From Escherichia coli (lineage in GTDB: Bacteria; Pseudomonadota; Gammaproteobacteria; Enterobacterales; Enterobacteriaceae), in NCBI RefSeq assembly GCF_022846255.1, contig NZ_AP025682.1: 64,000 bases of DNA. The stretch is one strand, 5' to 3'. Every line of letters starts with the position of its first letter. Within the stretch, counting starts at the first letter, position 1. Position numbers and translations under genes: made by a program. The notes under the pieces were generated by a model. The model did not search any database, had not been told where the DNA came from, and saw nothing but the letters and a program-made list of their open reading frames with translations. Below are positions 17,104-43,580 of this stretch, in pieces.

Positions 17104-17314
17104 CCTGCCTTCCTTTGATACAATTCGTAACAGGTTACTATCATCATAAAAAAGCTCAACCCGATGAACTCGCTAAAAATGAGACAAATCATTTATATCT
17201 CGAAAAAACTTGTTACAATCATGAGCGCTACACCGAACTTAACCATATAAATTATGTGTGTTTTGTTTATTTTTTAAACAATTACAACTATCCATTATTT
17301 ACACAGGTATCAAA

Positions 17315-18967: not shown

Positions 18968-18973
18968 TCGATC

Positions 18974-19681: not shown

Positions 19682-19684
19682 GAG

Positions 19685-21614: not shown

Positions 21615-22193
21615 TTAATTTGATTTATTTGCATCCATCAACGCTTTTAACTGCTCCGGCGAAAACGGTGGTTTGCGTCGGTGCAACATCGCATGGCAAT
21701 TAGGGCACACAGGAAGCAAATCATTAACTGGATCCAGCTGGTAATTCTCTTTAATGGCTGAAAGCGGCACCAGGTGATGCACATGGATAAAGCCTTCAGC
21801 GATATCACCATAGATCTTCACCAGATCAACGCCGCATACGTTGCACTGGCATCCATGATGTTCGACCGCTTTATCTCGGGCCTTTTTATCGCGTTCATAG
21901 CGGTTTACTGTCACCTTTATCGCCGCACTTTCAACGTATGTCTCCTGCGACGGCAACTCATCCGGGAACAGAACGTCGGCTATGGGAGCCGCAGCGGCTT
22001 TATCCAGATGAATATGAAATCCCTGCTCTATGAGTAGCTTGAGACATTTAGATTTTATTCCGCCGGTGAAATCCGCAGGGGTAAATTGCGTCCCCGTCAT
22101 CAATGTCGCTGCGATGCCAGCAATCGCCTTCGAGGGGTAACGTCGGCCATGAATACAACCGCGCAGGCTGGAACTGATGAGTTTCTCCCGCAT
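21615..22193 (-). CDS. HNH endonuclease (192 aa)
   Basis: C-terminal HNH signature HHGCQCNVCG...HVHHLVPLS...NDLLPVCPNCH; N-terminal ~100 aa unassigned. Confidence 0.65.
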   Translation of the reverse strand: MREKLISSSLRGCIHGRRYPSKAIAGIAATLMTGTQFTPADFTGGIKSKCLKLLIEQGFHIHLDKAAAAPIADVLFPDELPSQETYVESAAIKVTVNRYERDKKARDKAVEHHGCQCNVCGVDLVKIYGDIAEGFIHVHHLVPLSAIKENYQLDPVNDLLPVCPNCHAMLHRRKPPFSPEQLKALMDANKSN

Positions 22194-22333
22194 CCCATAA
22201 ATGGATAGCTTCGATGATATACCGCCGCGGAAGATGATCGGGGAGTTTATTCATGGAGAATGTCCTTATACGTTCTCAGAACAGGCAGCAAAAAAACAAA
22301 TGAGATCAAGGTAATATATCTTCACTTGCAGGC

Positions 22334-23263
22334 TTGAACAGCAGAAAATTTGCGAGCATGATCGCAATTATTTCACTGCCAGGGATATCAATGGCTTCCA
22401 GTAAATCGCTACAGCAGGCAATTGCCAATATAAAAATCTGGCACAAGGGTGAACAGCGCGCGCCGCATAAGCCATTGTTATTGCTATATATATTAGCGGG
22501 ATACCTGAATGGACATCCGCGCCTTTTCGATTATGGCTCGGAAATCTACGAACCTCTGCACAGTTTACTGGAACGTTTTGGGCCACAGCGTTCACAGTAC
22601 CGACCTGATATGCCGTTCTGGCGATTACAAGGCGACGGATTCTGGCAATTACACAATGCCGAGCTTTGCTCAACAGCAGGGAGCAGCCGACAACCACCAG
22701 TGAAGGAACTGACTGAATACCACGTTGCAGGCGGTTTCGATGAACAGCACTACGCCCTGGTAACTGGCAATAAAAAACTCATCAATACTCTGGCGCAACA
22801 GATACTCGAAGCGCACTTCACCGAGAGTATTCAGGAAGAAATTGCTGACGAGCTGGGTTTTGATCTCCAGCAAATCCGTAAACAGCGCGACCCGTTATTT
22901 CGCAAAAATGTATTACGCGCTTATAACTACCAGTGCGCGATATGTGGCTTTAATATGCGCCACGACGACACCACCGTCGCGCTGGAAGCGGCGCATATAA
23001 AATGGAAACAGCACGGCGGTCCTTGTGAAATTCCTAATGGCCTGGCGCTTTGCGCAATTCACCATAAAGCCTTTGATAAAGGATCGATTGGCCTGGATGA
23101 AAATATGCGGGTACTGGTATCAGATGCGGTAAACGGCGGAGGGATCGTTGAGAAACTATTCTGGGATTTTGACGGGAAAACTATTGCTTTGCCGCAGGTA
23201 CGTAAAAATTACCCTTATGAGGGATTTGTGGAGTGGCATCGAAAAGAGGTTTTTAGGGGGTGA
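22334..23263 (+). CDS. Two-domain HNH endonuclease (309 aa), N-terminal putative DNA-recognition domain; candidate modification-dependent restriction enzyme
   Basis: C-terminal HNH signature YQCAICGF...AAHIKWKQHGG...NGLALCAIHHKAFD; ~200-aa N-terminal domain (HKPLLLLYILAGY...) unassigned; divergent from the 192-aa HNH gene. Confidence 0.6.
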   Translation: MNSRKFASMIAIISLPGISMASSKSLQQAIANIKIWHKGEQRAPHKPLLLLYILAGYLNGHPRLFDYGSEIYEPLHSLLERFGPQRSQYRPDMPFWRLQGDGFWQLHNAELCSTAGSSRQPPVKELTEYHVAGGFDEQHYALVTGNKKLINTLAQQILEAHFTESIQEEIADELGFDLQQIRKQRDPLFRKNVLRAYNYQCAICGFNMRHDDTTVALEAAHIKWKQHGGPCEIPNGLALCAIHHKAFDKGSIGLDENMRVLVSDAVNGGGIVEKLFWDFDGKTIALPQVRKNYPYEGFVEWHRKEVFRG

Positions 23264-23373
23264 GGTTGATAATACCGCGCCCCTATAATCTTGCCATCTC
23301 GTGCATTGAGATGTTAAAAGCTACAAATGTTCTCCCTATTTTTCAATGTAGACATTTATAGCAATATCAAAAT

Positions 23374-24372
23374 TTATTGTTCAGCTTTTTCAACAACAAA
23401 ACCATTTTGCCGTACAAACTCAATCAAGAGTTCAATATTAACAATGCCCCATTGATTAGAAATAGCAACAATTTCACCAGAGGGAAGTGTAATCAACGCA
23501 TCTTCATTAATATGATAGCGACTTTTTTGCTTCTCTGGTATCTGATCGATAAGCATAACCGTACGTTTTTTAAAGTCATCACTTAATCCATTTATTAAAT
23601 CATTATAACTTGCAGGATTAAATTGTCTTATCCAATCACGTAATAATTCAAGCGCTAATTTACGTTTATTAAGTTCTTTATCTTTATATATATACCACGT
23701 ATAGTCCTTCTCTTTTTTCTGACTGCTAATTAGCTGTTCATCACGTTTTTCACGAAATTTAACTTGATATTCTTCCAATTCAGGAACCGGTATGATTTGC
23801 TCTGCATTGATTAGAACATCATCATTAAATCTATAAGGCGTCAGACGAACACATCGAATGTCTACCCCCTTATCTCTTAACCAAATCGCAGTGGTAGTCA
23901 GTTCCTTGCTAAAATCCGATGATGCCAAAACAATTCTGATATCTTTTCCGAAATCAACAAGCTCAGTTTCATCCAATTCAACAAATTCAAGTATTTTTTC
24001 TTTCGCATCGGCATCGCAGTTTTGTTTTTTCAAATACGTCTGGAAATATTCACATGCTTTCGCAAAACTCATTGTGGAAATCATCGCCGCATATCGTAGT
24101 GCCTGTAACTCCATATGCGCCCCCGTTTCATCACGTTTTAATTCGATAACCACTAAATTTGCCTGTTTATCGATTGCCAATAAATCAATTCGCCGACGGC
24201 TATCTTCCCAGTCAGAAAACTCTTCGGAAATCACCAGACAATCAGGAGCAATAATATCTATATTTTTTTTGATTGCTTCCTGTAAATCATAACGTTCCTG
24301 TAATCCTTCCAGAGTAAATGTCGTTTTTTCTAAAGCATGTAGTTCTTTATTTGCGATATTGTACAGCGCCAC
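23374..24372 (-). CDS. PD-(D/E)xK nuclease, NucS/DUF91-like N-terminal domain plus unassigned C-terminal domain
   Basis: Motif RIDLLAIDKQANLVVIELKRDE (D...ExK with the typical DUF91 spacing) near residue 60-80; monocistronic-looking gene between the HNH pair and jetD. Confidence 0.5.
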   Translation of the reverse strand: MALYNIANKELHALEKTTFTLEGLQERYDLQEAIKKNIDIIAPDCLVISEEFSDWEDSRRRIDLLAIDKQANLVVIELKRDETGAHMELQALRYAAMISTMSFAKACEYFQTYLKKQNCDADAKEKILEFVELDETELVDFGKDIRIVLASSDFSKELTTTAIWLRDKGVDIRCVRLTPYRFNDDVLINAEQIIPVPELEEYQVKFREKRDEQLISSQKKEKDYTWYIYKDKELNKRKLALELLRDWIRQFNPASYNDLINGLSDDFKKRTVMLIDQIPEKQKSRYHINEDALITLPSGEIVAISNQWGIVNIELLIEFVRQNGFVVEKAEQ

Positions 24373-24498: not shown

Positions 24499-25554
24499 CT
24501 ATATAAATAAACCTAAAGAAGCCACACCTTCTTGGGGTAGACGCTGGTGGATCGCCAGAAGAGTCTTCATTTCTCGTAAAACAAACTTTGGCATCCAGCC
24601 ACACTGTAACTCGAAATCAAACCGTTCGTTGTTGGCGTTCCCTTCCGCTGTCATCAGGCCATTTAAGATCAGTTTATTATAAAGCCATTCATCTAAATGC
24701 AAGCTGATACCGTAATCATTAAGCAACTTACAACGCAACTGATGAGCGATTTTTAAGCCCGCAACATCCAGATCGCCAAAATAAAGTAGTTGTTCTACCT
24801 GTTCGACCTCAAGGAGTTGTGACACGCACTCCGCCTGACCGGAAACTTTGTTACCTGCGCCATAAATGACCAGTGACCAGCGAGTCTGTGCTCGATTAAG
24901 TTGGCATAGCCGATAATACACATCGGAGTTTTCAACAATGATAGCCGGAAGATCATGGCAACGAGATGACTCATACGGTAAAGGCGGCGCACGTCGAAAC
25001 GCGCCCATATCAGCCAAAGTCAGAGTGACATGCTTCCAGCCATCAGGTGGCAAGGAGTCCAGAGCTTTTTCGTCACCAAATATAAGCAGAGACCGCTCAC
25101 GATGTCCAAGCAAGCCCGGGAATAGCGACTTGTCGCCCCCGGTTTGGCGAAAAAGATATGTATTCAGCTGTTGTAAGCGTGCCTTGATTGGCTGGGTAAG
25201 TTGTCCTGTAATACGTCGGGCCAACCAGGGATGCCAGGCTATTTCTGATGTTGTCTTCGTAGGAACGATGGCACCTTCGTAAACAAAAGTACTTGGCAGG
25301 CTCATACCCCGCCAGTAACGCTGCCAACTCGCTTTGTGCTTAGGTTGAGCCCGCCAGTCCCTTTCAAGCAGTTGCGTAACAGCCTGACTCAGCAAATCAG
25401 GCACCTCCTGGCTCAAGGCCTCTTGATTGTGTGCGCGTAATACCTCATCCAGCACCGCATTAGCTTTCACTGTACGCACGGCCTTACCAGCGGCAAGACG
25501 ATGTTTATTGGCTGTCGACTCCAGTCGGGATAGCCAGATCATTACGCTACTCAT
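24499..25554 (-). CDS. jetD: JetD-like Toprim-domain protein (Wadjet)
   Basis: C-terminal Toprim-like acidic motifs (AIIVENSDVYY; LYFGDLDVAGLKIA); last gene of a four-gene minus-strand operon following an SMC-like ATPase. Confidence 0.65.
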   Translation of the reverse strand: MSSVMIWLSRLESTANKHRLAAGKAVRTVKANAVLDEVLRAHNQEALSQEVPDLLSQAVTQLLERDWRAQPKHKASWQRYWRGMSLPSTFVYEGAIVPTKTTSEIAWHPWLARRITGQLTQPIKARLQQLNTYLFRQTGGDKSLFPGLLGHRERSLLIFGDEKALDSLPPDGWKHVTLTLADMGAFRRAPPLPYESSRCHDLPAIIVENSDVYYRLCQLNRAQTRWSLVIYGAGNKVSGQAECVSQLLEVEQVEQLLYFGDLDVAGLKIAHQLRCKLLNDYGISLHLDEWLYNKLILNGLMTAEGNANNERFDFELQCGWMPKFVLREMKTLLAIHQRLPQEGVASLGLFI

Positions 25555-25566
25555 CTCATATCAACC

Positions 25567-28500
25567 TTAAATGACTGGATCGAACTGTGGCTTAGCAGCC
25601 AGAGAAGCCGCCCACAGGGCATGGCGTTCTTTATCAACGGTTACCAAATCGCGCCGCCTCAGTTTTTGAACTTTATTCAGGAAGAGATGGTTATCAAACA
25701 TTGATTGGGCGTTTTCATCCGAAATACCAGTCAGGTAGATGAGCTGGATTTTATAGGCTTTGGCCATTTGGGTTTGAATGCGCATTAGATCATTGGCATT
25801 CGATTTACCCAGCGGGTTATCGGCTAACAAGAATCCTGCACTTGAAATACCCGTATCGTACTCTCGTACTTTACCAACCGTCACAAACAGTAAAAAGGCA
25901 GATGTAAGGCGCTGTCCACCCGAACCTTCAAGTCGGGTGACAGGAGTCCATTGTGGACGGCTGGCATTCGTCTTCAGCAAACGCACCTCCAGTTCCCCTT
26001 CGCCAAATACCGACTGAACCAAATCAGCTGTCAAGGCGTCCCGATTGGGCGCTCGGGGTATCTGTCCCCTGGCTATCCACTGCTGCAAGCGGCTGCTGGC
26101 AAAACCCCTGATATCAGCGGCAACATCATTCAACCGGTCGGTCATTTTAATAATGGGCCGACCAGGCAGTACGGGGCAATCCTCAGGAATTTTGACCGAC
26201 ATCGCGCGCCTGAGAAGCTTAATCGCCCCTTCCAGATGAGCAGTCAGATGGGTGACAGTCAGATCAATCGAACGTTGGAATTGCTCGAGGCTGTCCTGCA
26301 CAGCTTCGAATACCTGCGAGATCCCTGTACCGACCCTCTCCAAATCGCCCAGCACTTCATGATAAGTTGCGATTGAGTCCAACGGCCGTAAGTATTCCTG
26401 ACTGGCTCGGGCGTCTGGATCCTTGGCCAACTCTTCTTCGATGCGTTTGCGGAATTTTCCCCAGACCGTAGAGACGCGCATATTTTGCTGTTTTAGCGTT
26501 TCATTTAAACCGGCATACACTTGGCATTGTGCAGCCAGATCGTCAGCATATTCTGTGATGCTCAGGATCCTACCAGGTAGACCTGCGGCAGAGCTCGGCG
26601 TAATGGGCTGGATCATCGCTTGAGCTGTTTTGGCGTTCTGTAGCCGCTCTTTCACATTTTCAATCTTTCTCAACAGCAGTGTCTTTTGTTCCAGTAGGAA
26701 CTTGATCTGGTGTTCAATCGCATAAAGGTTATTGACGATTTCAGCCAGAGACGTTTGGATTGCCTCTATCTCAATGGGCTTCTCTTCCCAGACAAAATCC
26801 TCGTCAAGTGCTTTACTAGCCTCCTCACAGCTTTGGGAAAATTTTTGCAGAGTTACCTGAGAGCTAATTAGATTTTGCGTGAATTGCTTTTGCTGTTCTT
26901 TGAGGCGTACGATGCTGTTATTAATTACCGTTAGCTCATTGATGGCCGCAGCTTTTACCTCATCCGGATATGTATTGTAGGTGGGTTGAGCGGTCAAACG
27001 ATCAGAGGCGTAACGTTGTGCCTGTTCAGCATCTTTCAGTTGTTGCTTGAGAACGGTCACTTGATCACCGTTGGCTGCTTCGAGCAATTTTTTGTGCGCC
27101 TGAGCAGCCATCTCATGGGCATATTCAGGGCTTCGTCCTTCCATACCTTCAGTCGCCGTAATCTCTGAATAGAACGGTTCGTTACACAGATTACTCCAGC
27201 TACCTATCTGGATAATTAAAAGGGTTTTCTCGGAGCGTTTGTTCTTCTCGAGCTCGCTCAGCCGTTCCAGCCTCTCTCTCTGGGTGTAAAGAGTGTTCTT
27301 GCTTCGCTGAATCTGTGCAGCTAACTGCTCCAGTTTCATTATCGCCGTTTCACGCTTCGCCCATTCTTTTTCTACAAAAAGACTCACTTTATCATGTGCT
27401 TTTTCTGCCTGAATTTTCTGCTGTTGGGCGTTGTTTAAACGCACCTGGACATCTCTCTTCTCGTCACGCAGTGTTTGCTCATCATGCTCAGCTTGCTTAA
27501 GTGCTGCATCAGCATTTTCCAGTATTAATAGAGCCAGCTCCCGTTGGTCAAGCAGTCCCGCCCAATGCTTACCATACTGTTCGTAATGCCGACTCCAGTC
27601 ATTCCTGAAAGATTCCAGTACTTTAAGGGCGCTCTCCGCAGCCTTCACACTGACTTCCTGCGACGCTACGGTATTCTCCAGGTCTTGCAGCCGGGTTTCG
27701 TAAGCGGCCTGGCTATATCCGTGCTTATCGGGGTTTGAGAGGACAACCTGTACTAATTCAGACGTTTCTCGGCGGAGATCTTGTGCTTCATCCAGCAAGT
27801 AAATAGCAATAGGTGCCTTCTTCCAGGGTAGGATCTCACTAATTTTATGGACCTGTTCAAACGTTACATTGTCGAGTGCGACCAGGCTCAGGTAGCGGCC
27901 AGGGTTCTGATCGATCACCGCTGCAATCTTTTGTGCATCATCGTTGTGAGCAGAGGCCAAATAGTGTGGAAATGTCCATAGCTTATCCCGTGCAATGCCC
28001 GCAGCATAAAACGCTTCAAGTGCCTCATTGACCTGCTTAGCAACCAGTTCATGTCCCGTCACCCTCAACTCGTCCAGTTCGTGCCGGGCTTGCAGTAAAC
28101 GCTCTTTCATTCCATTCAGCGTTTGAGCGTTCGCATTCAATACTTTGTCGAGCTGCAATCCACACAGCTCGCTGTGCCAACTCGTGTCTTCAATATCCAG
28201 ATCATGTCGCGTTGACGATGGCAGTTTTTGATAGGTTTTTGCTAAAAGTAAGGCACTATCCACAGCTGACTGGTGTTTTTGTTTAGCCAGAATGAGTTTT
28301 TGCTGGGCCTCACTTTTCTCAATTGATGCCTCCCGCACAACATTCAGCTGTGCTTCCAGCGCCTGCTCTTTCTGATGAAGAATTGTATTAGCCAGTTCTT
28401 CACTCTGCTTTGCATCGCGTAAGGTTAATTCCAGTCGGTATTGGGCTGCTACTGGTGTTTCATCCTTCTGGATCAACCCAGCTTCACATAATTCATTCCG

Positions 28501-30003
28501 TTGCGATTCGCCCTGAAATTTGTCTCTTTTATATCCGTCACGCTCCGTTTCCAGACCACCCAACGTCTTTTGTAGTTTATCGTATGACTGTCTGAGGACA
28601 TGGCTTTCCCTGTCCATCTGCCCTAATTCTTCCTCAAGCGTAGCCTCCTGCTGGCGATGTCTGTCGATTGCCCACTCTAATGTGCCCAAGGCTTCGCCAG
28701 CAGTACGCTCGAAAATCACCTGTAGCGGCCTTTCCGTTTCACTTTGGAATACCTTCAGATCTTCATCTGCCTGGCGGTACTCATTCAGGGCCTTAGCATA
28801 GGCTTTGTAGTCTATAGCAGCGTGAGTAATCTCAATCTGGTGCTGATTGGTATCGGCTTCGTCTTGAAGCGCATCGACTATCGCTTTTTGTTTGTCGAAC
28901 TGATGCTGCACGAGATCATATTCAAGCAGTGCTCTGCGCTTACCTAACTGCTCACGCAGAGACATCGCCTGGCCAATATGTGTTTGCAAACTATCCATGT
29001 TATCTTCAAGCTGCGTCTGTTCAACCTGAGCATCCCCGACAAAGGCTGCGAGATCGCGCATTGCTTCTCGGAAGCCATCATCCAGCAGTTGCTGCTGTGC
29101 CTGGATGCTTTCCAGCTGTTTAGCCGGATCAAGAAACGCCAGCCAGTTAGCCAGCACATCCTTCAGGAAGGACTCGTTACGACGAATCCCCTCTAACTCT
29201 CCCTGACGCTCAACTTCATGCGCTACCAGTTCCCGCAGCCGCTCAGCCGCATCTTTAGACATGGTGCAGGCGAAGAACGCGCCAAGGAAATCATGTTCAG
29301 TTTTGTATTCGATAAAACGGGTCAGGCCACCTTCTTCGGAGTTGAAGGTCACCATTGTTTTGATAAGATCAACGTTAATTTGTTGTTCCAGTAAAAATGC
29401 GCGCCACTCGTTCTGTCTGGTGGTTTTACGCCAATGCATACCGCCTTCACTACCGGCCTTGAGATTAAGCCAGCTATCAAAACTGCGCAGGCTATTGGCA
29501 TAGGGGCGCAGCTCAGAATTGCGTTCCGCGCGGGAATAAGAAGGGACTTCATCAAACGGCGCGCCCATCAGGGAGTCGGGCGCATCACAAATAAACAGTG
29601 TCCGGTCAACATCATCTCCATTACGCTGATGAGCATGTCCTAGTAATAACGTTTGTCCTGATTCATTGACCATCTCAACCAAAACAACAGAGAGTTCTTT
29701 ATAGAAGTAATTGCGGTAGTGGTATTCACTCTGGCGATGATTTGCCAGATATTGGGTGAAGTCACTAACGGACGGCTCAAAAATCGATAACAGCAGCGCG
29801 ATGTAGGTCGACTTACCACCCCCATTCACAAGCTGCTGATAAGTACTGGTCACCACCTTCGCATTCCTGACGGGCGAGCGCAGACCTTCAACAACAGGGC
29901 TACTGACCGCTTGAGACAGGCCAATATAGTCCAGTGTGAGGTCCTTGTAGAAAGCTTCTTCATGGCCTGCACCATCCATATAAACCCGTTTAATCAGCCA
30001 CAT
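25567..30003 (-). CDS. jetC: JetC-like SMC/MukB-family ATPase (Wadjet)
   Basis: 1478 aa; N-terminal P-loop (VNGGGKSTY), very long coiled-coil middle, C-terminal signature/Walker B region (LLADNPLGKSNANDL...IQLIYLTGISDE). Confidence 0.7.
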   Translation of the reverse strand: MWLIKRVYMDGAGHEEAFYKDLTLDYIGLSQAVSSPVVEGLRSPVRNAKVVTSTYQQLVNGGGKSTYIALLLSIFEPSVSDFTQYLANHRQSEYHYRNYFYKELSVVLVEMVNESGQTLLLGHAHQRNGDDVDRTLFICDAPDSLMGAPFDEVPSYSRAERNSELRPYANSLRSFDSWLNLKAGSEGGMHWRKTTRQNEWRAFLLEQQINVDLIKTMVTFNSEEGGLTRFIEYKTEHDFLGAFFACTMSKDAAERLRELVAHEVERQGELEGIRRNESFLKDVLANWLAFLDPAKQLESIQAQQQLLDDGFREAMRDLAAFVGDAQVEQTQLEDNMDSLQTHIGQAMSLREQLGKRRALLEYDLVQHQFDKQKAIVDALQDEADTNQHQIEITHAAIDYKAYAKALNEYRQADEDLKVFQSETERPLQVIFERTAGEALGTLEWAIDRHRQQEATLEEELGQMDRESHVLRQSYDKLQKTLGGLETERDGYKRDKFQGESQRNELCEAGLIQKDETPVAAQYRLELTLRDAKQSEELANTILHQKEQALEAQLNVVREASIEKSEAQQKLILAKQKHQSAVDSALLLAKTYQKLPSSTRHDLDIEDTSWHSELCGLQLDKVLNANAQTLNGMKERLLQARHELDELRVTGHELVAKQVNEALEAFYAAGIARDKLWTFPHYLASAHNDDAQKIAAVIDQNPGRYLSLVALDNVTFEQVHKISEILPWKKAPIAIYLLDEAQDLRRETSELVQVVLSNPDKHGYSQAAYETRLQDLENTVASQEVSVKAAESALKVLESFRNDWSRHYEQYGKHWAGLLDQRELALLILENADAALKQAEHDEQTLRDEKRDVQVRLNNAQQQKIQAEKAHDKVSLFVEKEWAKRETAIMKLEQLAAQIQRSKNTLYTQRERLERLSELEKNKRSEKTLLIIQIGSWSNLCNEPFYSEITATEGMEGRSPEYAHEMAAQAHKKLLEAANGDQVTVLKQQLKDAEQAQRYASDRLTAQPTYNTYPDEVKAAAINELTVINNSIVRLKEQQKQFTQNLISSQVTLQKFSQSCEEASKALDEDFVWEEKPIEIEAIQTSLAEIVNNLYAIEHQIKFLLEQKTLLLRKIENVKERLQNAKTAQAMIQPITPSSAAGLPGRILSITEYADDLAAQCQVYAGLNETLKQQNMRVSTVWGKFRKRIEEELAKDPDARASQEYLRPLDSIATYHEVLGDLERVGTGISQVFEAVQDSLEQFQRSIDLTVTHLTAHLEGAIKLLRRAMSVKIPEDCPVLPGRPIIKMTDRLNDVAADIRGFASSRLQQWIARGQIPRAPNRDALTADLVQSVFGEGELEVRLLKTNASRPQWTPVTRLEGSGGQRLTSAFLLFVTVGKVREYDTGISSAGFLLADNPLGKSNANDLMRIQTQMAKAYKIQLIYLTGISDENAQSMFDNHLFLNKVQKLRRRDLVTVDKERHALWAASLAAKPQFDPVI

Positions 30004-30005
30004 AC

Positions 30006-30902
30006 TTAAATCTCCGTCAAGCGTTGCGTTTCTGTGGTTCCAGTTGTAACTGGACGTTCATTGAGCGAAGGAAACTCCAGGGTATCTGCTAATGCTGCAA
30101 GATCGCTTTCAGCTAAATCGGACGACCGTTCTTCTACGGCTGGACTGATGCTCATGACAAAGCGCACCGTCTCTTCGATGCCAGTATGGCGCAGATAATG
30201 TTTGAGTTTTTGGGTCGGATACCAGTCGGACTCTCCCGACAAACTGCTGTCTTCGGCCAGAAAGCCTTCCTCCTGCAGCAGTTGTATCCAGCGCGTTGCC
30301 ATTTCTGTTTGCGAGCGAATACTTGAGACACGCCCTACCTTTTCGTCGTGAATACGGGGAATACGTTCTTCCTGCACAAACCTGGCCGCCATAAGTAGGC
30401 CATCTACGGTATCGTCACCCTCGGCCTTGCGCTGGGCAATCACCTGGTCGGCAACATTATTGAGCCTGGCTACCACCGAGGCTGCATTAATGGCGTTACT
30501 CTGACCGAACTCGACACGAACGGTGTCTGGAGTTGGAAACAAATCAGCCAGCAACGCAATCAGAGTTAAGCCTGCAAACAGGCGCTGTTCTTTCCGTTCC
30601 TTACCCTGTTGCTCAGCCATTGTTTCAGGTAGCAAGCGTTTGTTCAGCCAACCCAAAGATGGGGAAAACGGACCTCGGCCATCTGCAGCCAGTAATACCC
30701 CGTAGGTCTCATGAATCCCGAGATACCGCAATTTCATACCTGTCGCGACGCCACGGATAATCTCTGTGAACAGGGCATCACCTTGCAGATCAAGAGCACG
30801 TTGAATCAGCTCATCCCCCATTTTATATCCCAGTGAATTCATAATTGCCTGCGTGGCAATCTCGGCGTAGCGTTTAGTTTGTTGATGCGCGTTGTCGTAC
30901 AT
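30006..30902 (-). CDS. jetB: JetB-like (MksE-like) subunit (Wadjet)
   Basis: 298-aa ORF translationally coupled between jetA (4-nt overlap) and jetC (3-nt gap); assignment by size and operon position. Confidence 0.55.
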   Translation of the reverse strand: MYDNAHQQTKRYAEIATQAIMNSLGYKMGDELIQRALDLQGDALFTEIIRGVATGMKLRYLGIHETYGVLLAADGRGPFSPSLGWLNKRLLPETMAEQQGKERKEQRLFAGLTLIALLADLFPTPDTVRVEFGQSNAINAASVVARLNNVADQVIAQRKAEGDDTVDGLLMAARFVQEERIPRIHDEKVGRVSSIRSQTEMATRWIQLLQEEGFLAEDSSLSGESDWYPTQKLKHYLRHTGIEETVRFVMSISPAVEERSSDLAESDLAALADTLEFPSLNERPVTTGTTETQRLTEI

Positions 30903-30904
30903 AA

Positions 30905-32371
30905 CTACTCCTCAAAGGGGTATAAGGGAGCAACCGTTAACAGTTTGATATTGTTAGCCCGCCAGAGCGTTGTTTCGATAGCGCCGTCTATCTCCACTTC
31001 TATTGCGGGATCGCTGTTAGCTGCCAGGCTGCCAATATGGAGTAAACAAACCTGTTGCTCTTGTTCGGATAATTCTTCGCCCTCATAGGCGTCAAAAACA
31101 TCTCTAAAGCTCACATGCCCCCAATTCTTCAATCGGTCACTAACCCAATCGCTGCATTTTTTAATGACAGATTCAGGGATACCTCGCAGGTTGGTTTCAA
31201 TAGCTACAGGCTGATCGGTGAGGTCCTGTATCTCATGTGGAAGCGCCTGTTCAAATCTATCGAGATAAAGGTTCAGCAGCGCCTCAAGGTCAAACAGAAT
31301 GTGCCGATCATCATCCTGTCTTCGGGGAGCCAACAGGCGTGCGGTGAGATCATCGATTTCCTTTTCGACAGTGTCGGGGGAATGAGACAGCAAGGGCTTG
31401 AGTGCACCTTTTTCCAGTGTTTCCCGAAAGAGGGTATTATCTCTGGGAATAATGAGTTTCAGACGAGCTCGCTCAAAATCTTTATTCACATCCAGTAAGC
31501 AGTCTTGATAGCGCTGCGTAAAAGCGCAGACCTCAGCAAAAATCTCCTGTGCTCTACGTAGCTTATTTAATTTGTCGGGATTTAATTTCGAAATTCCTTC
31601 AACCAGCATTTCGGTAATGGCCGACATTGAGTTCTGGATATGTTCCAAAACCTCTCGGGTTTTATCAAAGGAATCATTGAGTACGGGACGGATATCGTGT
31701 GCATAAGATGCACTCAAATCACCAGACTGGGCGGCACGCACTTTCATCCGCATTCCAATCAGATATTGCTCCAGTTGCCGCTGTGTTGATTGGATTTGGT
31801 GTACTGCCTTGTCGATCTCTCCGCGACGGATCGTTTTAAGCGTGCGCCAGGCCAGAATCGCAGCGCGTTCTATCGGCGTTTCATCCAAGCGCAGGGTATA
31901 GAACAACATTCCTTCATCAGTCAGCGACCAGAGAATATCATCTGAGCCGGATAGCTGGTCATAGCGTACCAGACGGACTATCTGCTCTTCGGAATGCGTT
32001 CGTTGCGAGAAATCATAATAACGGAGGCGGAAAGGATCTTTGATCGCCACAAAAATCTTGCTGGCCACTTGTGCGTAGTCGGGTTCTTCTTGTCCCGGAT
32101 AGGCTTCATTGAGGTGCCCAACCAGACATAACTCCGCTTCCTTACGCGTCATTCCAGGCCGGCGCTCGCGGTCAGCATAATAAAGCATGGCGTCAAAGAG
32201 ATACATGATTGCCGCCAGCGCATCAAGCTCAACACCATCGAACGGATTTCGCTGAAGGGCGCTATATATTGAATCCAGCGTCCGCACGACCAGCAAGGCG
32301 TGAGACTGAATAGACAGCTCACGACGTGCCATTGATTCATTACGAGCCTGCTCCAAAAACCCTAGCGACAT
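30905..32371 (-). CDS. jetA: JetA-like (MksF/kleisin-like) subunit (Wadjet)
   Basis: 488-aa ORF, first gene of the operon; assignment by size and position upstream of JetB/JetC/JetD. Confidence 0.55.
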   Translation of the reverse strand: MSLGFLEQARNESMARRELSIQSHALLVVRTLDSIYSALQRNPFDGVELDALAAIMYLFDAMLYYADRERRPGMTRKEAELCLVGHLNEAYPGQEEPDYAQVASKIFVAIKDPFRLRYYDFSQRTHSEEQIVRLVRYDQLSGSDDILWSLTDEGMLFYTLRLDETPIERAAILAWRTLKTIRRGEIDKAVHQIQSTQRQLEQYLIGMRMKVRAAQSGDLSASYAHDIRPVLNDSFDKTREVLEHIQNSMSAITEMLVEGISKLNPDKLNKLRRAQEIFAEVCAFTQRYQDCLLDVNKDFERARLKLIIPRDNTLFRETLEKGALKPLLSHSPDTVEKEIDDLTARLLAPRRQDDDRHILFDLEALLNLYLDRFEQALPHEIQDLTDQPVAIETNLRGIPESVIKKCSDWVSDRLKNWGHVSFRDVFDAYEGEELSEQEQQVCLLHIGSLAANSDPAIEVEIDGAIETTLWRANNIKLLTVAPLYPFEE

Positions 32372-32417
32372 AACATTCTCCCTCTGAGACGGAAGCCACT
32401 ATAGTACTCCCCTGCCA

Positions 32418-32440
32418 ATTAAGCAAAGAAACTTTGCTTA
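32418..32440. promoter_or_regulatory. Perfect palindrome in the jetA/regulator divergent promoter region (candidate operator)
   Basis: ttaagcaaag-aaa-ctttgcttaa (10-bp arms, 3-bp spacer) followed by a T9 run; lies 47 bp upstream of jetA and ~105 bp upstream of the divergent regulator gene. Confidence 0.4.
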
Positions 32441-32546
32441 ATTTTTTTTTATAGCAATGTTATTTGTTTTGATGTCATTCGCCTTCTATACTCAGTCGGT
32501 ATATCAAACCGCAATTGATTAACCTGCAAATAAGAATAAAACTGAT

Positions 32547-33440
32547 ATGTACTACTCAAAGTTTCTTGAGAAACACAAATCCCCCCTCAGCCACGCACAA
32601 TGGTTGCGCTTGCGCTATATTGAGCGCCAGCTACTGTGGGAACGAAAAGTCACTTCGCGCATGATTGCTGAAGAGTTTGGCGTCTCGGCGCAACAAGCTC
32701 GTACTGATGTAAGAACCTATATGGAGGTCGCTCCAGGCAATGCTATTGAGAAGGGGGCCGGCCGAAAAGGGTATTTCCCCAGTACGACGTTTACGCCTGT
32801 TTTGCTGGGAGACAACGATCTGGTCTGGCGTGCGACGGTAGAATTTCAACCGCCGCAAGCGGCCCACGCGCAGGAAATCCCGCTCATCCATCGCGCCGTG
32901 CATAGCCGCACGCTGGCAATTTTTTTGTCAGCAATCGAACAGAAAGGACAAGTAAAAGTGACTTATGCGTCAATGGAAAACCCGGAAGGCATATCTCGTA
33001 CACTAAGCCCTACGGTAATTATCACCGTTAACGGGCGTCAGCATGTGCGAGCCTATGACTGGGGAAGTTCGGCGTTTAAGGACTTTGTTTTGGCGCGATT
33101 TCTGGACTCGCCGGAACTGATTGTTCCTGCACCCGCCCCGCCACGCAAAGATACCGCGTGGGAGGTCATAATCCCCGTGCGTTTTATCGCAAATCCAACA
33201 CTAAACAAAGCGCAACAAGAGGTAATTAAGCGGGACTATTTACTTGAACCCTCTGAATTCAACATTCGTGCACCAATGATTTTTTATTTATGCCCTGAAA
33301 ACAATCTGCCTAAAACAGATGATGAATATGCACAAGCTACTGACGCCAGCAGCCACGGCCCCTTTATCTACCCTGTTCTAGCTGTGCACGCCCAAACAGG
33401 GGAGCCTATTCATAAGTACCGCCATGCAGGTGAGAGATAG
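32547..33440 (+). CDS. HTH transcriptional regulator with WYL-like domain (BrxR/CapW-like)
   Basis: HTH segment (SRMIAEEFGVSAQQARTDVRTYM) followed by WYL-like core (VRAYDWGSSAFKDFVLARF); divergent from jetA. Confidence 0.45.
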   Translation: MYYSKFLEKHKSPLSHAQWLRLRYIERQLLWERKVTSRMIAEEFGVSAQQARTDVRTYMEVAPGNAIEKGAGRKGYFPSTTFTPVLLGDNDLVWRATVEFQPPQAAHAQEIPLIHRAVHSRTLAIFLSAIEQKGQVKVTYASMENPEGISRTLSPTVIITVNGRQHVRAYDWGSSAFKDFVLARFLDSPELIVPAPAPPRKDTAWEVIIPVRFIANPTLNKAQQEVIKRDYLLEPSEFNIRAPMIFYLCPENNLPKTDDEYAQATDASSHGPFIYPVLAVHAQTGEPIHKYRHAGER

Positions 33441-33948: not shown

Positions 33949-34818
33949 TCAATCAAGAGGGATGGTCCACATTGACGTATCAAAATCGATCTCTGACCAG
34001 CGAGCAAAACGTAGCTCACTGGAGCGAATAAAGATAAGCAGAGTGAGTTCCGTTGCCCAGCGGGTTAGCGGCCTGCCGGTATAGCCGTCTATTTTCTCAA
34101 GTAACTCAGGGATGCGCTTTAACTCCAGCGCCGGACGATGCTGTCGATTACTGGAAGCAACCGCCCCCGCCATCTCTTGTGCCGGGTTATAATCAATTAA
34201 TCCACTTTGCACTGCATAACGCATGATGGCCGTGGTGCGCTGTTGAAGGCGGGAAGCCACTTCAAAACGTCCAGATTTCTCCACGGCTTTAATGGGAATT
34301 AACAGATCGCGGGTGCCCAGTTCAGCAATATTGCGAGCAACAATTGTTGGGAAGATATTGTCCTCCAGGCTCTTTTTTCCACGATTAGCATGATCTTCCG
34401 ACCATTTTTGGTTGGTTACGAGCCACTCTCTGGCAACCTTCTCGAAAGTAATAATCTCTTTCGCCTGCTCTTCTTTCACAGCACGTTTATGCTCACGAGG
34501 ATCGATACCAGCAGCGACCAGCTTTCTGGCCTCTTCCCTTTTCTTCCGCGCATCCGCCAGCGAAACATCCGGGTAAACGCCGAACGCCATCAAATGTTGT
34601 TTACCACCAAAACGGAAACGAAATCGCCAATACTTTGAACCGCCAGGTTTTACAAGTAAAGACATGCCGTCGCCGTCAACAAGTGAATACTCTTTCTCCT
34701 CAGGTTTTGCAGGACGAACTTTAGTATACGTTAGGGCTATAGTGGTCTTCCTTCCATTGGTATCTCGTGAGTATACAAGCAATATCGAATCGGCAAATAT
34801 ACTTATAAGTATACTCAC
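33949..34818 (-). pseudogene. P4-type tyrosine integrase, C-terminally truncated (intB-like remnant)
   Basis: Residues align with the N-terminal two thirds of the intact integrase at 51593-52840 (GSKYWRFRFRFGGKQ..., RLQQRTTAIMRYAVQSGLIDYNPAQ, LTLLIFIRSSELRFARWSEIDF) but end at ...WTIPLD before the catalytic region. Confidence 0.75.
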
Positions 34819-34903
34819 AAGCCTGTTGATGTGGGTTGAGTCAGGTTGACTTCAGTTGAGGAGAAAAGCTGGAAAAGCCTTGCGTAGCGCGGATTTCAGG
34901 CAT

Positions 34904-34927
34904 AAAAAAAGACCTCAGTTGAGGTCT
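34904..34927 (-). terminator. Intrinsic terminator (ancestral leuX terminator relic)
   Basis: Hairpin agacctca-gt-tgaggtct flanked by A7 on the plus strand, i.e. stem plus T7 on the minus strand; lies just downstream (minus sense) of the partial tRNA copy. Confidence 0.6.
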
Positions 34928-34940
34928 ATTTACATACTTT

Positions 34941-34963
34941 TGGTGCGAAGGCCGGACTCGAAC
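34941..34963 (-). repeat. 23-bp direct repeat of the leuX 3-prime end (att site / island junction)
   Basis: tggtgcgaaggccggactcgaac matches the 3-prime end of the tRNA at 53030-53054 except for one deleted base. Confidence 0.8.
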
Positions 34964-35685
34964 ATATTAATTATCCCGTTGTATTTAAGGCTATTTTATC
35001 AAAATCATTATTGAAGTACCATCATTAATACCATCATAGGTATTGTTCTCCTTTGGCAACAGTTCTTTGATATCGAAATACTTTAACGAACTTTTTATGA
35101 CATCATACTTTGAAGAAAAAATCACATACTGATTTTCATCCAGTACATCTTGCAAGACAAGGTATAAAACAGGGACTACGATTAAAAATAGCAAAGTCAT
35201 TCACTAAATGAATTCAAAATCAGTGATGTTCTTATCTGCAAGAATATAATATATTTAAAAGATTATAAGCAATATATAAATAATAATATAGCTTTAAAAA
35301 AACACACATGAATTAGAAGTTAAATACATTAATTAAAGAAACAAATAAGTAAGAATTTTGTTTTTAAATAACTCATGCAAACGCATCGTTTATTTATATT
35401 AAAGGAAAATGATGAAATCCAATCTAAATTTAAATAGCTACATTACAAACGAATAGAAAAAGAAGCATTTTCCATGTTAAACTACTATCTTGGTGAAGAC
35501 AGGGGGTATAGCCTTCTGCGGTAGCCTACGCTCTTCGAATGCAAAGCAAGAAAATAACCTTTATAATCAAATTGTTATGCAATGCGCTTGTAGAGCAAAG
35601 GTATCTTAAACGAATAGGTTTAACAGTTAAAGCCTCTTTACATAGGCTGAACAAGGGCAGTACTTGAAAATGATAAAATTGGGGT

Positions 35686-37371
35686 ATGTTTAAAATTATG
35701 AATGCCCATAGTTTAGAGATGAGAAAAGAGTTAGGAGCATATTATACTCCAAGTGCTCTTAGTCAAGTGATGTCAGATTGGGCAATTAGAAGACCAACTG
35801 ATAAAATACTTGAGCCAAGTTTTGGAGGCTGTGGCTTTTTAGAAAGCTGTGAAAAGAGCCTCATGGAGATAGGCTGCATAAACCCAATGGAAAATTTATT
35901 TGGGGTTGATGTAGACCAAAAAGCCTTTGATACTCTCAAAAAAAAATATGGGCATTTATTAATAAAAAAACATTTCATTTTAAGTGATTTCATTAACGTA
36001 TTTCCAAAAGATTTTGGCATTGAAGATTTTGAGGTTATCATTGGGAACCCTCCTTATATCTCTATGCATAATATGAGTTATGAACAAAGGAAGTCCTGTG
36101 AAAAAGTTTTTGCTGACTCACCTTTTAAAACAAAAACATTAGGACGCAATGCAAGTCTTTGGGGGTTTTTCTTACTCCATGCATTAAGCTTCATTCGAGA
36201 AAATGGACGAATAGCGTGGGTATTACCGAGTAGTTTTTTAAATGCCTATTATGCGAAAGAGCTTATAAGAATTTACAAAAATCATTTTAACCATCTAAAA
36301 ATAATAAAGATAAATGAAAGACTTTTCAAAAATGAAGGTGCCGATGAAATGTCAGTACTTTTTTTATGCGATGAGTTTCACAGGACACCTATCAATAATG
36401 GATACGTTTCAATTGGATTTGCTGACACATTAAATGAACTAACCAGCATAATGACTGGAACTAAAGAAAACAAATTAAATAGCTCTGAAAATTACAAATA
36501 TAATATATTAGATATTGACACATTAAATGTGATATCGTCTATAACAGAACATAAGTACAGTTTAAAAATACAGGATATTGCTGATATAAAGATTGGGATG
36601 GTAACCGGCATGAACAACTTCTTTATATTGGATCAAAATCAAATTTTAAAACATAATTTAGACAATAAACATTTTAGACCAGTTATTTCACGATTTTCAC
36701 ATTTGAAGGGAATTCACCACACATTAAAAAGACATACGAAGTTAATTGCAGACAATAAAAAAGGATTGCTATTACACGTCAGTCCAGATGATTTATATGA
36801 AAAACATAGTCCGTTGAGAAAATATTTATCACAAGTTGATAGAAAAGAACGAGTCAAAAACCGCACATTCAAAAAACGAAAAAAGTGGTTTCAACCAGAT
36901 GATGGTATTTACCCAGACGCATTTTTTTCATATATGGTTCATGAGTTTCCCAGAATGATATTAAATAAAGGGAAAGTTAACTGCACTAACTCAATACATC
37001 GTATCTTTTTCAAAGATATAGCATCTAATAAATTAAAAAAAGCATGTTGCATATCTCTTTTATCAACATTTTCACAACTTTCTGCCGAACTTGAAGGTCG
37101 GTCATATGGCTCAGGTGTGCTAAAAATAGAGCCTACCGCAGGAAAGAACATATCATTCTTAATTAAAGATGATTTAATACACGAGTTAAGCAACTTAAGT
37201 AAAGAAATAGATCAATTGCTTTTAAATAATGAAACAAGCAATGCCACTGCTTTAGTTGATAAGTTTTTTGTTGATAAGGGACTAATTAGCTTAGATGAAT
37301 TGAAAAGTCTTAAAAAAGGGTTATTCAGATTAAGAAAAGATCGATATAAAGGGGTCAAAAATTATGAGTGA
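35686..37371 (+). CDS. N6-adenine DNA methyltransferase (Eco57I-like gamma-class) with C-terminal extension
   Basis: Motifs GAYYTP, ILEPSFGGCGFL (motif I-like) and IIGNPPYIS (motif IV, approx 36044-36060); 561 aa; first gene of a tightly overlapping four-gene operon. Confidence 0.8.
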   Translation: MFKIMNAHSLEMRKELGAYYTPSALSQVMSDWAIRRPTDKILEPSFGGCGFLESCEKSLMEIGCINPMENLFGVDVDQKAFDTLKKKYGHLLIKKHFILSDFINVFPKDFGIEDFEVIIGNPPYISMHNMSYEQRKSCEKVFADSPFKTKTLGRNASLWGFFLLHALSFIRENGRIAWVLPSSFLNAYYAKELIRIYKNHFNHLKIIKINERLFKNEGADEMSVLFLCDEFHRTPINNGYVSIGFADTLNELTSIMTGTKENKLNSSENYKYNILDIDTLNVISSITEHKYSLKIQDIADIKIGMVTGMNNFFILDQNQILKHNLDNKHFRPVISRFSHLKGIHHTLKRHTKLIADNKKGLLLHVSPDDLYEKHSPLRKYLSQVDRKERVKNRTFKKRKKWFQPDDGIYPDAFFSYMVHEFPRMILNKGKVNCTNSIHRIFFKDIASNKLKKACCISLLSTFSQLSAELEGRSYGSGVLKIEPTAGKNISFLIKDDLIHELSNLSKEIDQLLLNNETSNATALVDKFFVDKGLISLDELKSLKKGLFRLRKDRYKGVKNYE

Positions 37372-41506: not shown

Positions 41507-41771
41507 TGTATCAAAATCTGTTAACCATCTCCAATTACGAATAGCAATATTTATATAAAACTAATTTTTTATTTTAAACAACTTCAGCAAGGGCTAACTC
41601 TCAGCATCTCCTTCGGTGATACTTTGAGTTGCTCCTTGTTTTTTCGCCCTTTGGTTGAAAAAATTAAAAGCAAAACCAACCCTATACATTGACTTTTTCA
41701 GCATCTATCATATAAATAAAATAAGCATAATGGACATGCTTATTTTACTTTACTATATGAAAGGAGTTCAT

Positions 41772-43372: not shown

Positions 43373-43580
43373 TTTCTCCACAGATAAACGATCGTTATAA
43401 TCGATCGATTTATTTATATTGATAGTCAATAACAATCAATAGGTAAATAATCGATCGGTACAAGCAATTTGCTATGTCCTTAGAAGTGTTCAAAATGTAC
43501 TTTCATGCATAAATCGGATAATAGGTTGATTTTACTAGCCTATTTTTCTATCCACGTATCGAACATGCAGGGACTGAAGT

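What the first reader, a model, noticed from the sequence alone, without database searches (positions are those of the whole stretch)
24499..32371. Wadjet-like jetABCD operon
Four translationally coupled genes (488, 298, 1478, 351 aa) with an SMC-like ATPase and a Toprim-domain final gene match the Wadjet anti-plasmid system layout. Its presence in a tRNA island that also carries a relaxase suggests pressure from plasmid traffic.
Basis: partly seen in the sequence, partly recalled or inferred. Interest (0 to 1): 0.45.

Follow-up and report, generated by a model that had tools for sequence, protein, structure and literature searches.

The report
Type III Wadjet anti-plasmid operon
This is an intact four-gene Wadjet (JetABCD) plasmid-defence system of the little-studied type III, sitting with its own regulator in an E. 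coli defence island; it is a known kind of system, but its motor protein lacks the usual ATP-splitting glutamate.

Summary
Four tightly packed minus-strand ORFs lie exactly at 24499-32371 (488, 298, 1478 and 351 aa).

They form a type III Wadjet operon, jetA-jetB-jetC-jetD, in the E. coli leuX (tRNA-Leu CAA) defence island.
- JetA, JetC and JetD match PADLOC JetA3, JetC3 and JetD3 models over their full length.
- JetD has the Pfam JetD_C Toprim domain, with invariant E208 and D261-x-D263.
- The JetA model's best structural matches are the MukF and JetA kleisins.
- The JetB model has two winged-helix units like KITE proteins, but it matches no JetB HMM or Pfam family.
- All four genes are under purifying selection (dN/dS about 0.1-0.18).
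- The same A-B-C-D order recurs in distant metagenomic relatives.
- The operon is in 64 of 5426 complete E. coli genomes.

A divergent BrxR-family regulator and a conserved 12-bp inverted repeat over the jetA promoter travel with it in E. coli, Brenneria and Aeromonas.

One feature I did not find described: every JetC relative examined has Asp-Asn instead of the catalytic Asp-Glu in Walker B, including a Clostridium type III JetC. This is a known kind of system and of modest interest.

The parts
30905..32371 (-). jetA (488 aa): MukF/JetA-type kleisin of type III Wadjet
30006..30902 (-). jetB (298 aa): divergent KITE-like subunit with two winged-helix units and a disordered acidic C-terminal tail
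25567..30003 (-). jetC (1478 aa): SMC-family ABC ATPase with a long coiled coil; Walker B is Asp-Asn rather than Asp-Glu
   Evidence: PADLOC JetC3 PDLC00587 matches residues 1-1478, and seven further JetC3 models also match. Invariant residues are Walker A N60-GGGKS65, N221/E224/G225, S1361-G-G, and D1395-N1396-P1397-x-G1399. All 80 full-length relatives carry DNP. hhalign against MukB puts SGGE opposite STGE and LLLDNP opposite LFLDEA. There are no Pfam, NCBIfam or PDB sequence matches.
24499..25554 (-). jetD (351 aa; probable start at 25542 giving 347 aa): Toprim nuclease effector
   Evidence: PADLOC JetD3 PDLC00593 matches residues 5-351 at E=6e-244, with weaker JetD1 and JetD2 hits. Pfam JetD_C PF09983 matches at 5e-9. 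Invariant residues across six homologues sharing 25-37% identity with the E. coli JetD are E208-N209, G260-D261-x-D263 and Q341-E342. PGAP names it 'Wadjet anti-phage system protein JetD domain-containing protein'.
32547..33440 (+). brxR-family wHTH-WYL regulator, divergent from jetA; a linked accessory gene and probable repressor of the operon
   Evidence: PGAP names it 'BrxR family helix-turn-helix transcriptional regulator'. PADLOC WYL matches at 1e-15. Orthologues with WHD_BrxR, WYL and BrxR_CTD domains sit in the same divergent position next to jetA in Aeromonas (L012) and Brenneria (L014). The gene is absent in Cobetia and in most distant loci. The association of BrxR/CapW with Wadjet is reported in PMC11662680.
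32417..32443 (.). Perfect 12-bp inverted repeat AATTAAGCAAAG-aaa-CTTTGCTTAATT in the brxR-jetA intergenic region; candidate BrxR operator overlapping the -35 region of the jetA promoter
   Evidence: The repeat was found and read. The core GCAAAGTTnCTTTGC is invariant in E. coli, Brenneria and Aeromonas while the flanks diverge. E. coli PD23 carries a symmetric double change (TTAAG/CTTAA to TCAAG/CTTGA) that keeps the palindrome. A conserved TATAGT hexamer lies 14 nt downstream on the jetA strand. BrxR proteins bind 10-11 bp inverted repeats with a 5-bp spacer (PMC9122601). Binding here is inferred, not tested.

Best explanation
This is an intact type III Wadjet system (JetABCD) with a linked BrxR-type regulator, carried in the leuX defence island of an E. 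coli chromosome.

Proposed mechanism, by analogy with the characterised type I and type II systems:
- JetC, an SMC-family ATPase, dimerises through its hinge.
- JetA, a MukF-like kleisin, closes and dimerises the JetC dimers.
- JetB, a tandem winged-helix KITE subunit, binds the kleisin.
- The resulting JetABC sensor loads on DNA and 'measures' it.
- On small circular DNA the complex reaches a stalled state that recruits or activates the JetD Toprim nuclease, which cuts the plasmid.
- BrxR probably represses jetABCD by binding the conserved palindrome over the promoter.

Shown here: gene content and order, family and fold assignment of all four proteins, intact ATP-binding motifs and Toprim catalytic residues, purifying selection, and mobility of the module.

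Inferred only: anti-plasmid activity, loop extrusion, and BrxR control.

One step is doubtful. The Walker B catalytic Glu is Asn in every JetC relative examined, including a Clostridium type III JetC. The ATPase cycle must therefore differ from type I, through slow hydrolysis or through another catalytic residue such as the invariant E224 of the NxxEG motif.
For: - ORFs at the stated coordinates.
- PADLOC JetA3, JetC3 and JetD3 full-length matches.
- Pfam JetD_C.
- Invariant Toprim residues E208 and D261-x-D263.
- JetC Walker A, signature and Walker B Asp invariant across relatives down to 14% identity.
- The same A-B-C-D order in five complete distant loci (plus one cut off within jetC) and three close ones.
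- dN/dS 0.09-0.18.
- Sporadic island distribution: 64 of 5426 E. coli genomes, with Druantia III and Zorya II as neighbours.
- BrxR and the conserved palindrome.
- Type I and type II Wadjet cleave circular DNA, and type III is expected to follow the same principle (bioRxiv 10.1101/2025.03.10.642339).
Against: - No experiment exists on this subclade, and the literature found describes type III as largely uncharacterised.
- JetC has no Pfam, NCBIfam or PDB sequence match.
- The Walker B Glu that type I needs for DNA cleavage (JetC EQ is dead; bioRxiv 10.1101/2022.10.04.510915) is Asn here. The type I mechanism cannot be carried over unchanged.
Confidence: 0.8

Rival explanations
1. The locus is a Wadjet-type complex, but JetC works as an ATP-binding DNA clamp or sensor rather than a processive loop-extruding motor. 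Natural loss of the Walker B glutamate would make it an 'EQ-like' SMC, as in Lamassu LmuB. Target recognition and JetD activation would then follow a different logic from type I.
For: D1395-N1396 is invariant in 80 of 80 full-length relatives, and a Clostridium perfringens type III JetC has it too. hhalign places N1396 opposite the Glu that follows the Walker B Asp in MukB (LFLDEA). In type I the E-to-Q mutant abolishes hydrolysis and cleavage. LmuB naturally carries E-to-Q (PMC10586767).
Against: The full SMC-kleisin-KITE set and the very long coiled coil are conserved, which argues for a ring-shaped DNA-entrapping machine. An invariant acidic residue (E224 in NxxEG, also present in Clostridium) could supply the catalytic base. 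The authors of the type II study expect type III to follow the extrusion-cleavage principle. No biochemical data exist.
Confidence: 0.12
2. It is a chromosome-organising MksBEF/MukBEF-like condensin, not a defence system, and the fourth gene is incidental.
For: The SMC-kleisin-KITE composition is shared with MukBEF and MksBEF. A three-gene system containing a DUF3584 protein (the Pfam domain that PADLOC's JetC3 models list) gave cisplatin and motility phenotypes in Shewanella (bioRxiv 10.1101/072470).
Against: JetD, with intact Toprim residues, is present and in fixed position in every complete related locus. The operon is in only about 1.2% of complete E. coli genomes, inside a defence island. 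dS against Brenneria is only about 0.5, which points to horizontal transfer. E. coli already has MukBEF.
Confidence: 0.03
3. It is an inactive relic: an ATPase-dead SMC with an unrecognisable JetB that is no longer functional.
For: The catalytic Glu is missing. JetB is not recognised by any HMM. Some E. coli copies carry IS66 or IS3 insertions. A Salmonella IncFIB plasmid copy is visibly frameshifted and its jetD is truncated.
Against: All four ORFs are full length with family-typical sizes. dN/dS is 0.09-0.18. The Asp-Asn motif is invariant in every relative examined, from Gammaproteobacteria and Actinobacteria to Clostridium, which indicates a selected feature and not decay.
Confidence: 0.05

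Closest known systems
Wadjet type III (JetA3/B3/C3/D3; class defined by Doron et al. 2018, representative from Bacillus thuringiensis)
   Same: It has the same four components. JetA, JetC and JetD give best and full-length matches to PADLOC type III models. JetA and JetB lack Pfam domains. JetD is short (about 350 aa) with a C-terminal Toprim domain. The DNP Walker B and the NxxEG motif are shared with a Clostridium type III JetC.
   Different: The gene order is A-B-C-D, whereas the Clostridium perfringens plasmid example runs D-A-B-C. JetB is not recognised by any of the seven JetB3 HMMs that match the Clostridium JetB (PGAP: DUF6063 family), and Pfam finds no family in the E. coli JetB at all. 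This gammaproteobacterial subclade often carries a BrxR regulator.
Wadjet type I (E. coli GF4-3 and P. aeruginosa PA14 JetABCD; C. glutamicum MksBEFG)
   Same: Overall SMC-kleisin-KITE plus Toprim nuclease architecture. The JetA and JetB models resemble the type I subunits (8q72_E, 8dk1_E). The expected function is restriction of circular plasmids.
   Different: There are no DUF3375 or DUF4194 domains. JetC is about 1478 aa. Walker B is D-N here, whereas in type I the Walker B Glu is required: the JetC E-to-Q mutant is inactive. JetD lacks the long N-terminal DUF3322 region that PADLOC lists for its JetD1 models; only the Toprim core aligns.
MukBEF / MksBEF bacterial condensins
   Same: The JetA model's best structural matches are MukF. 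The JetC C-terminal head aligns in register with MukB from the signature motif to Walker B. The gene order kleisin-KITE-SMC is the same as mukF-mukE-mukB.
   Different: A nuclease partner (JetD) is present. The locus is sporadic, horizontally transferred and located in an island. No sequence-level similarity to MukF or MukE is detectable. Walker B has Asn where MukB has Glu.
Lamassu LmuB (Rad50/SMC-like defence sensor)
   Same: It is an SMC-like defence ATPase in which the Walker B Glu is naturally replaced, by Gln in LmuB (PMC10586767).
   Different: LmuB is about 650 aa with short coiled coils and no kleisin or KITE partners. Its effectors differ and it has no Toprim JetD.

Membership tests
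Wadjet (JetABCD), any type | Operon encoding four components: SMC-like JetC, kleisin JetA, KITE JetB and Toprim JetD | tested here: met
   Four adjacent co-oriented ORFs. The same order recurs in eight other complete loci.
Wadjet (JetABCD), any type | JetC is an SMC-family ABC ATPase: N-terminal Walker A and C-terminal signature plus Walker B, separated by a long coiled coil with a hinge | tested here: met
   Invariant NGGGKS, SGG[Q/E] and hhhhD motifs sit about 1300 residues apart. Eight PADLOC JetC3 models match. The C-terminal head aligns in register with MukB, but weakly (pairwise E=0.033). The coiled coil and hinge are inferred from composition only. No Pfam or PDB sequence match was found.
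Wadjet (JetABCD), any type | Canonical Walker B Asp-Glu (the catalytic glutamate needed for cleavage in type I) | tested here: not met
   D1395 is followed by N1396. DNP is present in 80 of 80 full-length relatives and in a Clostridium type III JetC. The type I requirement is reported.
Wadjet (JetABCD), any type | JetA is a MukF-like kleisin: N-terminal WHD and helical bundle, flexible linker, C-terminal WHD | tested here: met
Wadjet (JetABCD), any type | JetB is a KITE protein (tandem winged-helix domains) | tested here: inconclusive
Wadjet (JetABCD), any type | JetD has a Toprim domain with the catalytic Glu and DxD | tested here: met
   PF09983 JetD_C at 5e-9. E208, D261 and D263 are invariant in six homologues sharing 25-37% identity with the E. 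coli JetD.
Wadjet (JetABCD), any type | Reduces transformation by, or cleaves, circular plasmids | not testable with these tools
   This needs transformation or cleavage assays.
Wadjet type III | JetA, JetC and JetD match type III profiles best | tested here: met
   PDLC00564, PDLC00587 and PDLC00593 match over their full length. Hits to type I and type II JetD models are weak and cover only the Toprim core.
Wadjet type III | JetB matches a JetB3 profile | tested here: not met
   No PADLOC hit at E<=10 for the E. coli JetB, and none at E<=0.001 for its distant relative in L003. The same library's JetB3 models match the Clostridium perfringens JetB (3e-88 for the best of seven).
Wadjet type I | JetA has DUF3375 and JetB has DUF4194 | tested here: not met
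   Pfam scans of JetA and JetB find neither domain.
MukBEF/MksBEF condensin | Three-gene SMC-kleisin-KITE system with no nuclease partner; chromosome maintenance role | tested here: not met
   JetD is present and conserved. The locus is in an island and in only 64 of 5426 E. coli genomes. A role in chromosome maintenance cannot be tested here.
Lamassu | Short (about 650 aa) LmuB plus an LmuA effector, with no kleisin or KITE | tested here: not met
   JetC is 1478 aa, and kleisin-like JetA and a Toprim JetD are present. The PADLOC search of the four proteins returned only Jet models.

The most novel reading that the evidence does not exclude
Type III Wadjet as a whole may run on a non-canonical SMC ATPase cycle. 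The Walker B catalytic glutamate is replaced by an invariant asparagine (hhhhD-N-P-x-G). An invariant NxxEG motif sits in the N-terminal head at about the position where a Q-loop would be expected.

Two readings follow. Catalysis may have moved to another residue. Or JetC3 may be a slow or non-hydrolysing clamp, so that plasmids are recognised without processive loop extrusion. The gammaproteobacterial subclade found here would also carry a previously uncatalogued KITE family.
Probability: 0.25. Interest if true: 0.7.

Novelty: new member of a known kind. Interest (0 to 1): 0.35.

Why it matters
As a locus it is ordinary: a recognised anti-plasmid system in a typical E. coli defence island.

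It matters modestly for three reasons.

1. The literature found here describes type III Wadjet as largely uncharacterised. This copy comes from E. coli, a genetically tractable species, is intact and carries its own regulator, which makes it a convenient model.

2. The invariant Asp-Asn Walker B raises a direct question: does the extrusion-cleavage model built on type I, where the E-to-Q mutant is dead, hold for all Wadjet types?

3. The JetB of this subclade escapes the versions of PADLOC and Pfam used here. Tools that need all four genes would under-call the system, while PGAP labels only JetD.

Carriage of such a system may also affect plasmid acquisition, including resistance plasmids, in the 1-2% of E. 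coli strains that have it.

Tried and rejected
- NCBIfam scan of all four proteins: no hits.
- phmmer of JetC and JetD against PDB sequences: nothing.
- Profile of full-length JetC against the PDB: only coiled-coil noise such as myosin and dynactin.
- Profile of the JetC C-terminal head against the PDB: only spurious designed-PPR hits.
Precomputed Pfam domains for all JetC relatives are empty.
- hhalign of the JetA family against MukF, and of the JetB family against MukE and Clostridium JetB3: no significant alignment. Kleisin and KITE assignments therefore rest on predicted folds and synteny.
- The PDC-S11/PDDEXK gene (23374-24372) as a possible fifth operon member: rejected. No related locus in another genus has it downstream of jetD.
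- The relaxase as part of the same module: rejected. It lies in a separate low-GC integrative element.
- The generic promoter and terminator scan found fewer promoter-like sites than the shuffled controls and only slightly more terminator-like sites, and apart from the palindrome it was not informative.
Full report
**1. Observation**

The window carries four co-oriented minus-strand ORFs at exactly the stated coordinates:
- 30905-32371, 488 aa
- 30006-30902, 298 aa
- 25567-30003, 1478 aa
- 24499-25554, 351 aa

The intergenic gaps are 2, 2 and 12 nt. GAGGAG and GGAG motifs lie in the last codons of jetA and jetB, just upstream of the next start codon. The genes are tightly packed and plausibly coupled, but they do not overlap.

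jetD probably starts at Met5 (25542, 347 aa). PGAP uses that start, the PADLOC profile begins there, and the closest orthologues (Aeromonas, Cobetia, Brenneria) are 345-347 aa.

All four are real genes. Nei-Gojobori dN/dS against Brenneria, Aeromonas and Cobetia orthologues is 0.09-0.18.

**2. Source and context**

The window is E. coli chromosome at the leuX locus. tRNA-Leu(CAA) is at 53030-53114, and core genes (ahr, yjgR, lptFG, idnD) lie beyond it.

The operon is present at 80% coverage or more in 64 of 5426 complete E. coli genomes, always on the chromosome, with a best identity of 99.6%. PGAP labels the genes 'hypothetical', 'hypothetical', 'coiled-coil domain-containing' and 'Wadjet anti-phage system protein JetD domain-containing'.

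It sits in a dense defence island:
- a methyltransferase, an SNF2 helicase, and DruE3/DruH3 (Druantia type III)
- ZorA2/ZorB2/ZorE2 (Zorya type II)
- an HNH endonuclease and a phosphorothioate-binding HNH endonuclease
- a PDC-S11/PDDEXK nuclease

That element carries three tyrosine recombinases and lies directly next to the tRNA.

**3. What the four proteins are**

*JetD.* It matches JetD3 PDLC00593 at 6e-244 and Pfam JetD_C at 5e-9. The Toprim Glu (E208) and DxD (D261, D263) are invariant in six homologues sharing only 25-37% identity with the E. coli JetD.

*JetC.* It matches JetC3 PDLC00587 over residues 1-1478, plus seven other JetC3 models. It has an invariant Walker A (NGGGKS, 60-65). 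An invariant signature motif SGG[Q/E] (1361-1364) and Walker B Asp (D1395) lie about 1300 residues further on. Most of the intervening sequence is poor in Pro and Gly and rich in residues typical of coiled coils, with a compositionally different stretch around 660-780 that I take to be the hinge. This last point is inferred from composition only.

*JetB.* This is the weak point.
- It matches no PADLOC model even at E<=10 and no Pfam family.
- The same library's seven JetB3 models recognise the JetB of a Clostridium perfringens type III system (best 3e-88), but not the E. coli JetB or its distant relative in L003.
- An exhaustive HMMER search of 1.84 billion representative proteins found only 14 relatives.
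- The AF2 model (pLDDT 69.7) contains two helix-helix-helix-hairpin winged-helix units and a disordered acidic tail at 252-298.

Taking this together with its fixed position between kleisin and SMC and its dN/dS of about 0.1, I regard it as a divergent KITE subunit. The membership test by itself is inconclusive.

**4. Conservation of the module**

The most distant JetB relatives (21-41% identity) come from independent metagenomic or genomic contigs. Every such contig long enough to show the whole operon has the same four genes in the same order:
- A, 484-498 aa
- B, 261-291 aa
- C, 1458-1476 aa
- D, 344-357 aa with PF09983

Close relatives in Aeromonas, Cobetia and Brenneria show the same layout.

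dS between the E. coli and Brenneria copies is only about 0.5. To my knowledge this is much lower than expected for vertically inherited genes of those genera, so the module has moved horizontally.

A BrxR-family wHTH-WYL regulator is divergently adjacent to jetA in E. coli, Brenneria and Aeromonas. It lies two genes away in one distant locus and is absent elsewhere. It is a frequent accessory, not a core part.

The brxR-jetA spacer contains a perfect 12-bp inverted repeat at 32417-32443. Its core GCAAAGTTnCTTTGC is invariant across the three genera while the flanks diverge. E. coli PD23 shows a symmetric double substitution that keeps the palindrome. A conserved TATAGT lies 14 nt downstream on the jetA strand.

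BrxR proteins are repressors that bind 10-11-bp inverted repeats (PMC9122601). The association of CapW/BrxR with Wadjet has been noted (PMC11662680). Repression of jetABCD by BrxR at this site is my inference.

**5. The unusual feature**

In ABC and SMC ATPases, the Walker B Asp is followed by the catalytic Glu. Here the motif is FLLAD-N-PLG.

D-N-P-x-G is invariant in the 24-sequence alignment, which spans Gammaproteobacteria, Actinobacteria and metagenomes down to 14% identity. It is present in 80 of 80 full-length relatives retrieved.

A Clostridium perfringens plasmid JetC belongs to a different PADLOC JetC3 cluster (PDLC00583), in an operon with JetA3, JetB3 and JetD hits. It also reads LIMDNPFA.

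hhalign of the C-terminal head profile against E. coli MukB aligns SGGE with STGE and LLLDNP with LFLDEA. This puts N1396 opposite the Glu that follows the Walker B Asp in MukB. The pairwise E-value is only 0.033, but the motifs are in register.

A second invariant motif, N221-x-x-E224-G225 (LNKDEG in Clostridium), lies in the N-terminal head at about the position where a Q-loop would be expected.

In type I Wadjet the Walker B E-to-Q mutant neither hydrolyses ATP nor supports cleavage (bioRxiv 10.1101/2022.10.04.510915). Lamassu LmuB naturally carries E-to-Q (PMC10586767).

I found no paper that mentions this property of type III JetC. The library searched is incomplete, so this does not establish priority.

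One caveat applies. Most relatives were retrieved by searches that could favour the conserved block containing DNP. An unbiased census across all type III calls is still needed.

**6. Mechanism**

The best-supported reading is a type III Wadjet. A JetA-JetB-JetC SMC complex senses DNA and licenses the JetD Toprim nuclease to cut small circular DNA, with expression gated by BrxR.

The composition, folds, catalytic residues and selection are shown here. The activity is inferred from type I and II work and from the literature's statement that type III likely follows the same principle.

Because the catalytic Glu is missing, I give a minority probability that the ATPase cycle, and therefore the way DNA is 'measured', differs materially from type I.

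A condensin role is unlikely given JetD, the island location and the 1.2% prevalence. A dead relic is unlikely given the intact ORFs, the low dN/dS and the invariance of the Asn in every relative examined.

**7. Comparison and novelty**

This is a member of a known kind. PADLOC already holds HMMs built from essentially this family for JetA3, JetC3 and JetD3.

What is not catalogued is the JetB family of this subclade and, as far as I could find, the D-N Walker B.

The literature found here calls type III 'largely uncharacterized'. An intact, regulator-equipped copy from a genetically tractable species such as E. coli is thus a useful experimental handle, but the locus is not a surprise.

Interest is 0.35.

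Noticed in passing
window 1-17103: A Druantia type III module lies upstream: a DNA methyltransferase (cut by the window start), a DrmD/BrxH-like SNF2 helicase (4348-7206, minus strand), DruE3 (7430-13753, minus strand) and DruH3 (13744-17103, minus strand). DruE3 and DruH3 give full-length PADLOC matches.
   Followed up: partly
window 17258-20788: A complete Zorya type II system on the plus strand: ZorA2, ZorB2 and ZorE2.
   Followed up: partly
window 21615-24372: Three single-gene nuclease candidates lie between Zorya and Wadjet: an HNH endonuclease (21615-22193, minus strand), a phosphorothioate-DNA-binding HNH restriction endonuclease (22334-23263, plus strand), and a PDC-S11/PDDEXK nuclease (23374-24372, minus strand). 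The last is 126 nt downstream of jetD on the same strand, but it is not linked to Wadjet in other genera.
   Followed up: partly
window about 34900-53114: A separate low-GC (32-40%) integrative element abuts tRNA-Leu(CAA). It carries an N6 DNA methylase (35686-37371), a 769-aa protein annotated as a sensor histidine kinase with a weak restriction-enzyme hit, two hypothetical proteins, a relaxase (42185-43372), a DNA-binding protein, and three tyrosine recombinases (47385-49905 and 51593-52840). The methylase-kinase-hypothetical cluster may be another defence system; it gave a weak PADLOC 'mad2' hit.
   Followed up: partly
window 33949-34818: A 289-aa minus-strand ORF between brxR and the low-GC element has no PADLOC hit. 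In strain PD23 the equivalent position holds transposase and frameshifted integrase remnants, so this may be the junction between two islands.
   Followed up: no
E. coli hits H1, H4, H5: Several E. coli genomes carry the same operon interrupted by IS66-family or IS3-family insertions. This suggests recurrent inactivation of the system in some lineages.
   Followed up: no
L010 (Salmonella enterica IncFIB plasmid pRM11065-2, 132.6 kb) 3549-11440: A copy with 79% identity lies on a large plasmid and is degraded. The jetA and jetB frames overlap, jetC is split into 978-aa and 506-aa ORFs, and only a 195-aa ORF remains in the jetD position.
   Followed up: partly
L009 (Clostridium perfringens plasmid pJFP838A) 1-7510: A Firmicutes type III Wadjet lies on a 404-kb plasmid with gene order jetD-jetA-jetB(DUF6063)-jetC. 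This differs from the A-B-C-D order in the window, but the JetC has the same DNP Walker B and NxxEG motif.
   Followed up: partly
L005 8900-9421: In one distant relative, two small ORFs (75 and 92 aa) are inserted between jetB and jetC. Their function is unknown.
   Followed up: no
window 30006-30146 (JetB residues 252-298): JetB has a disordered acidic C-terminal tail ending in a conserved ETQ-x-x-x-E-[IV] motif. It is found only in the close subclade; distant homologues are 261-274 aa. By analogy with the type I JetB motif that binds JetD, it may be a docking peptide. This is pure inference.
   Followed up: no
L012 15715-18069 (Aeromonas locus): Next to the Aeromonas Wadjet copy is a cluster with BubE, DUF6791 and Multi_ubiq Pfam hits, which may be a bacterial ubiquitin-like conjugation defence system (inferred from the Pfam family names only). 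This shows that the Wadjet module lands in different defence islands.
   Followed up: no
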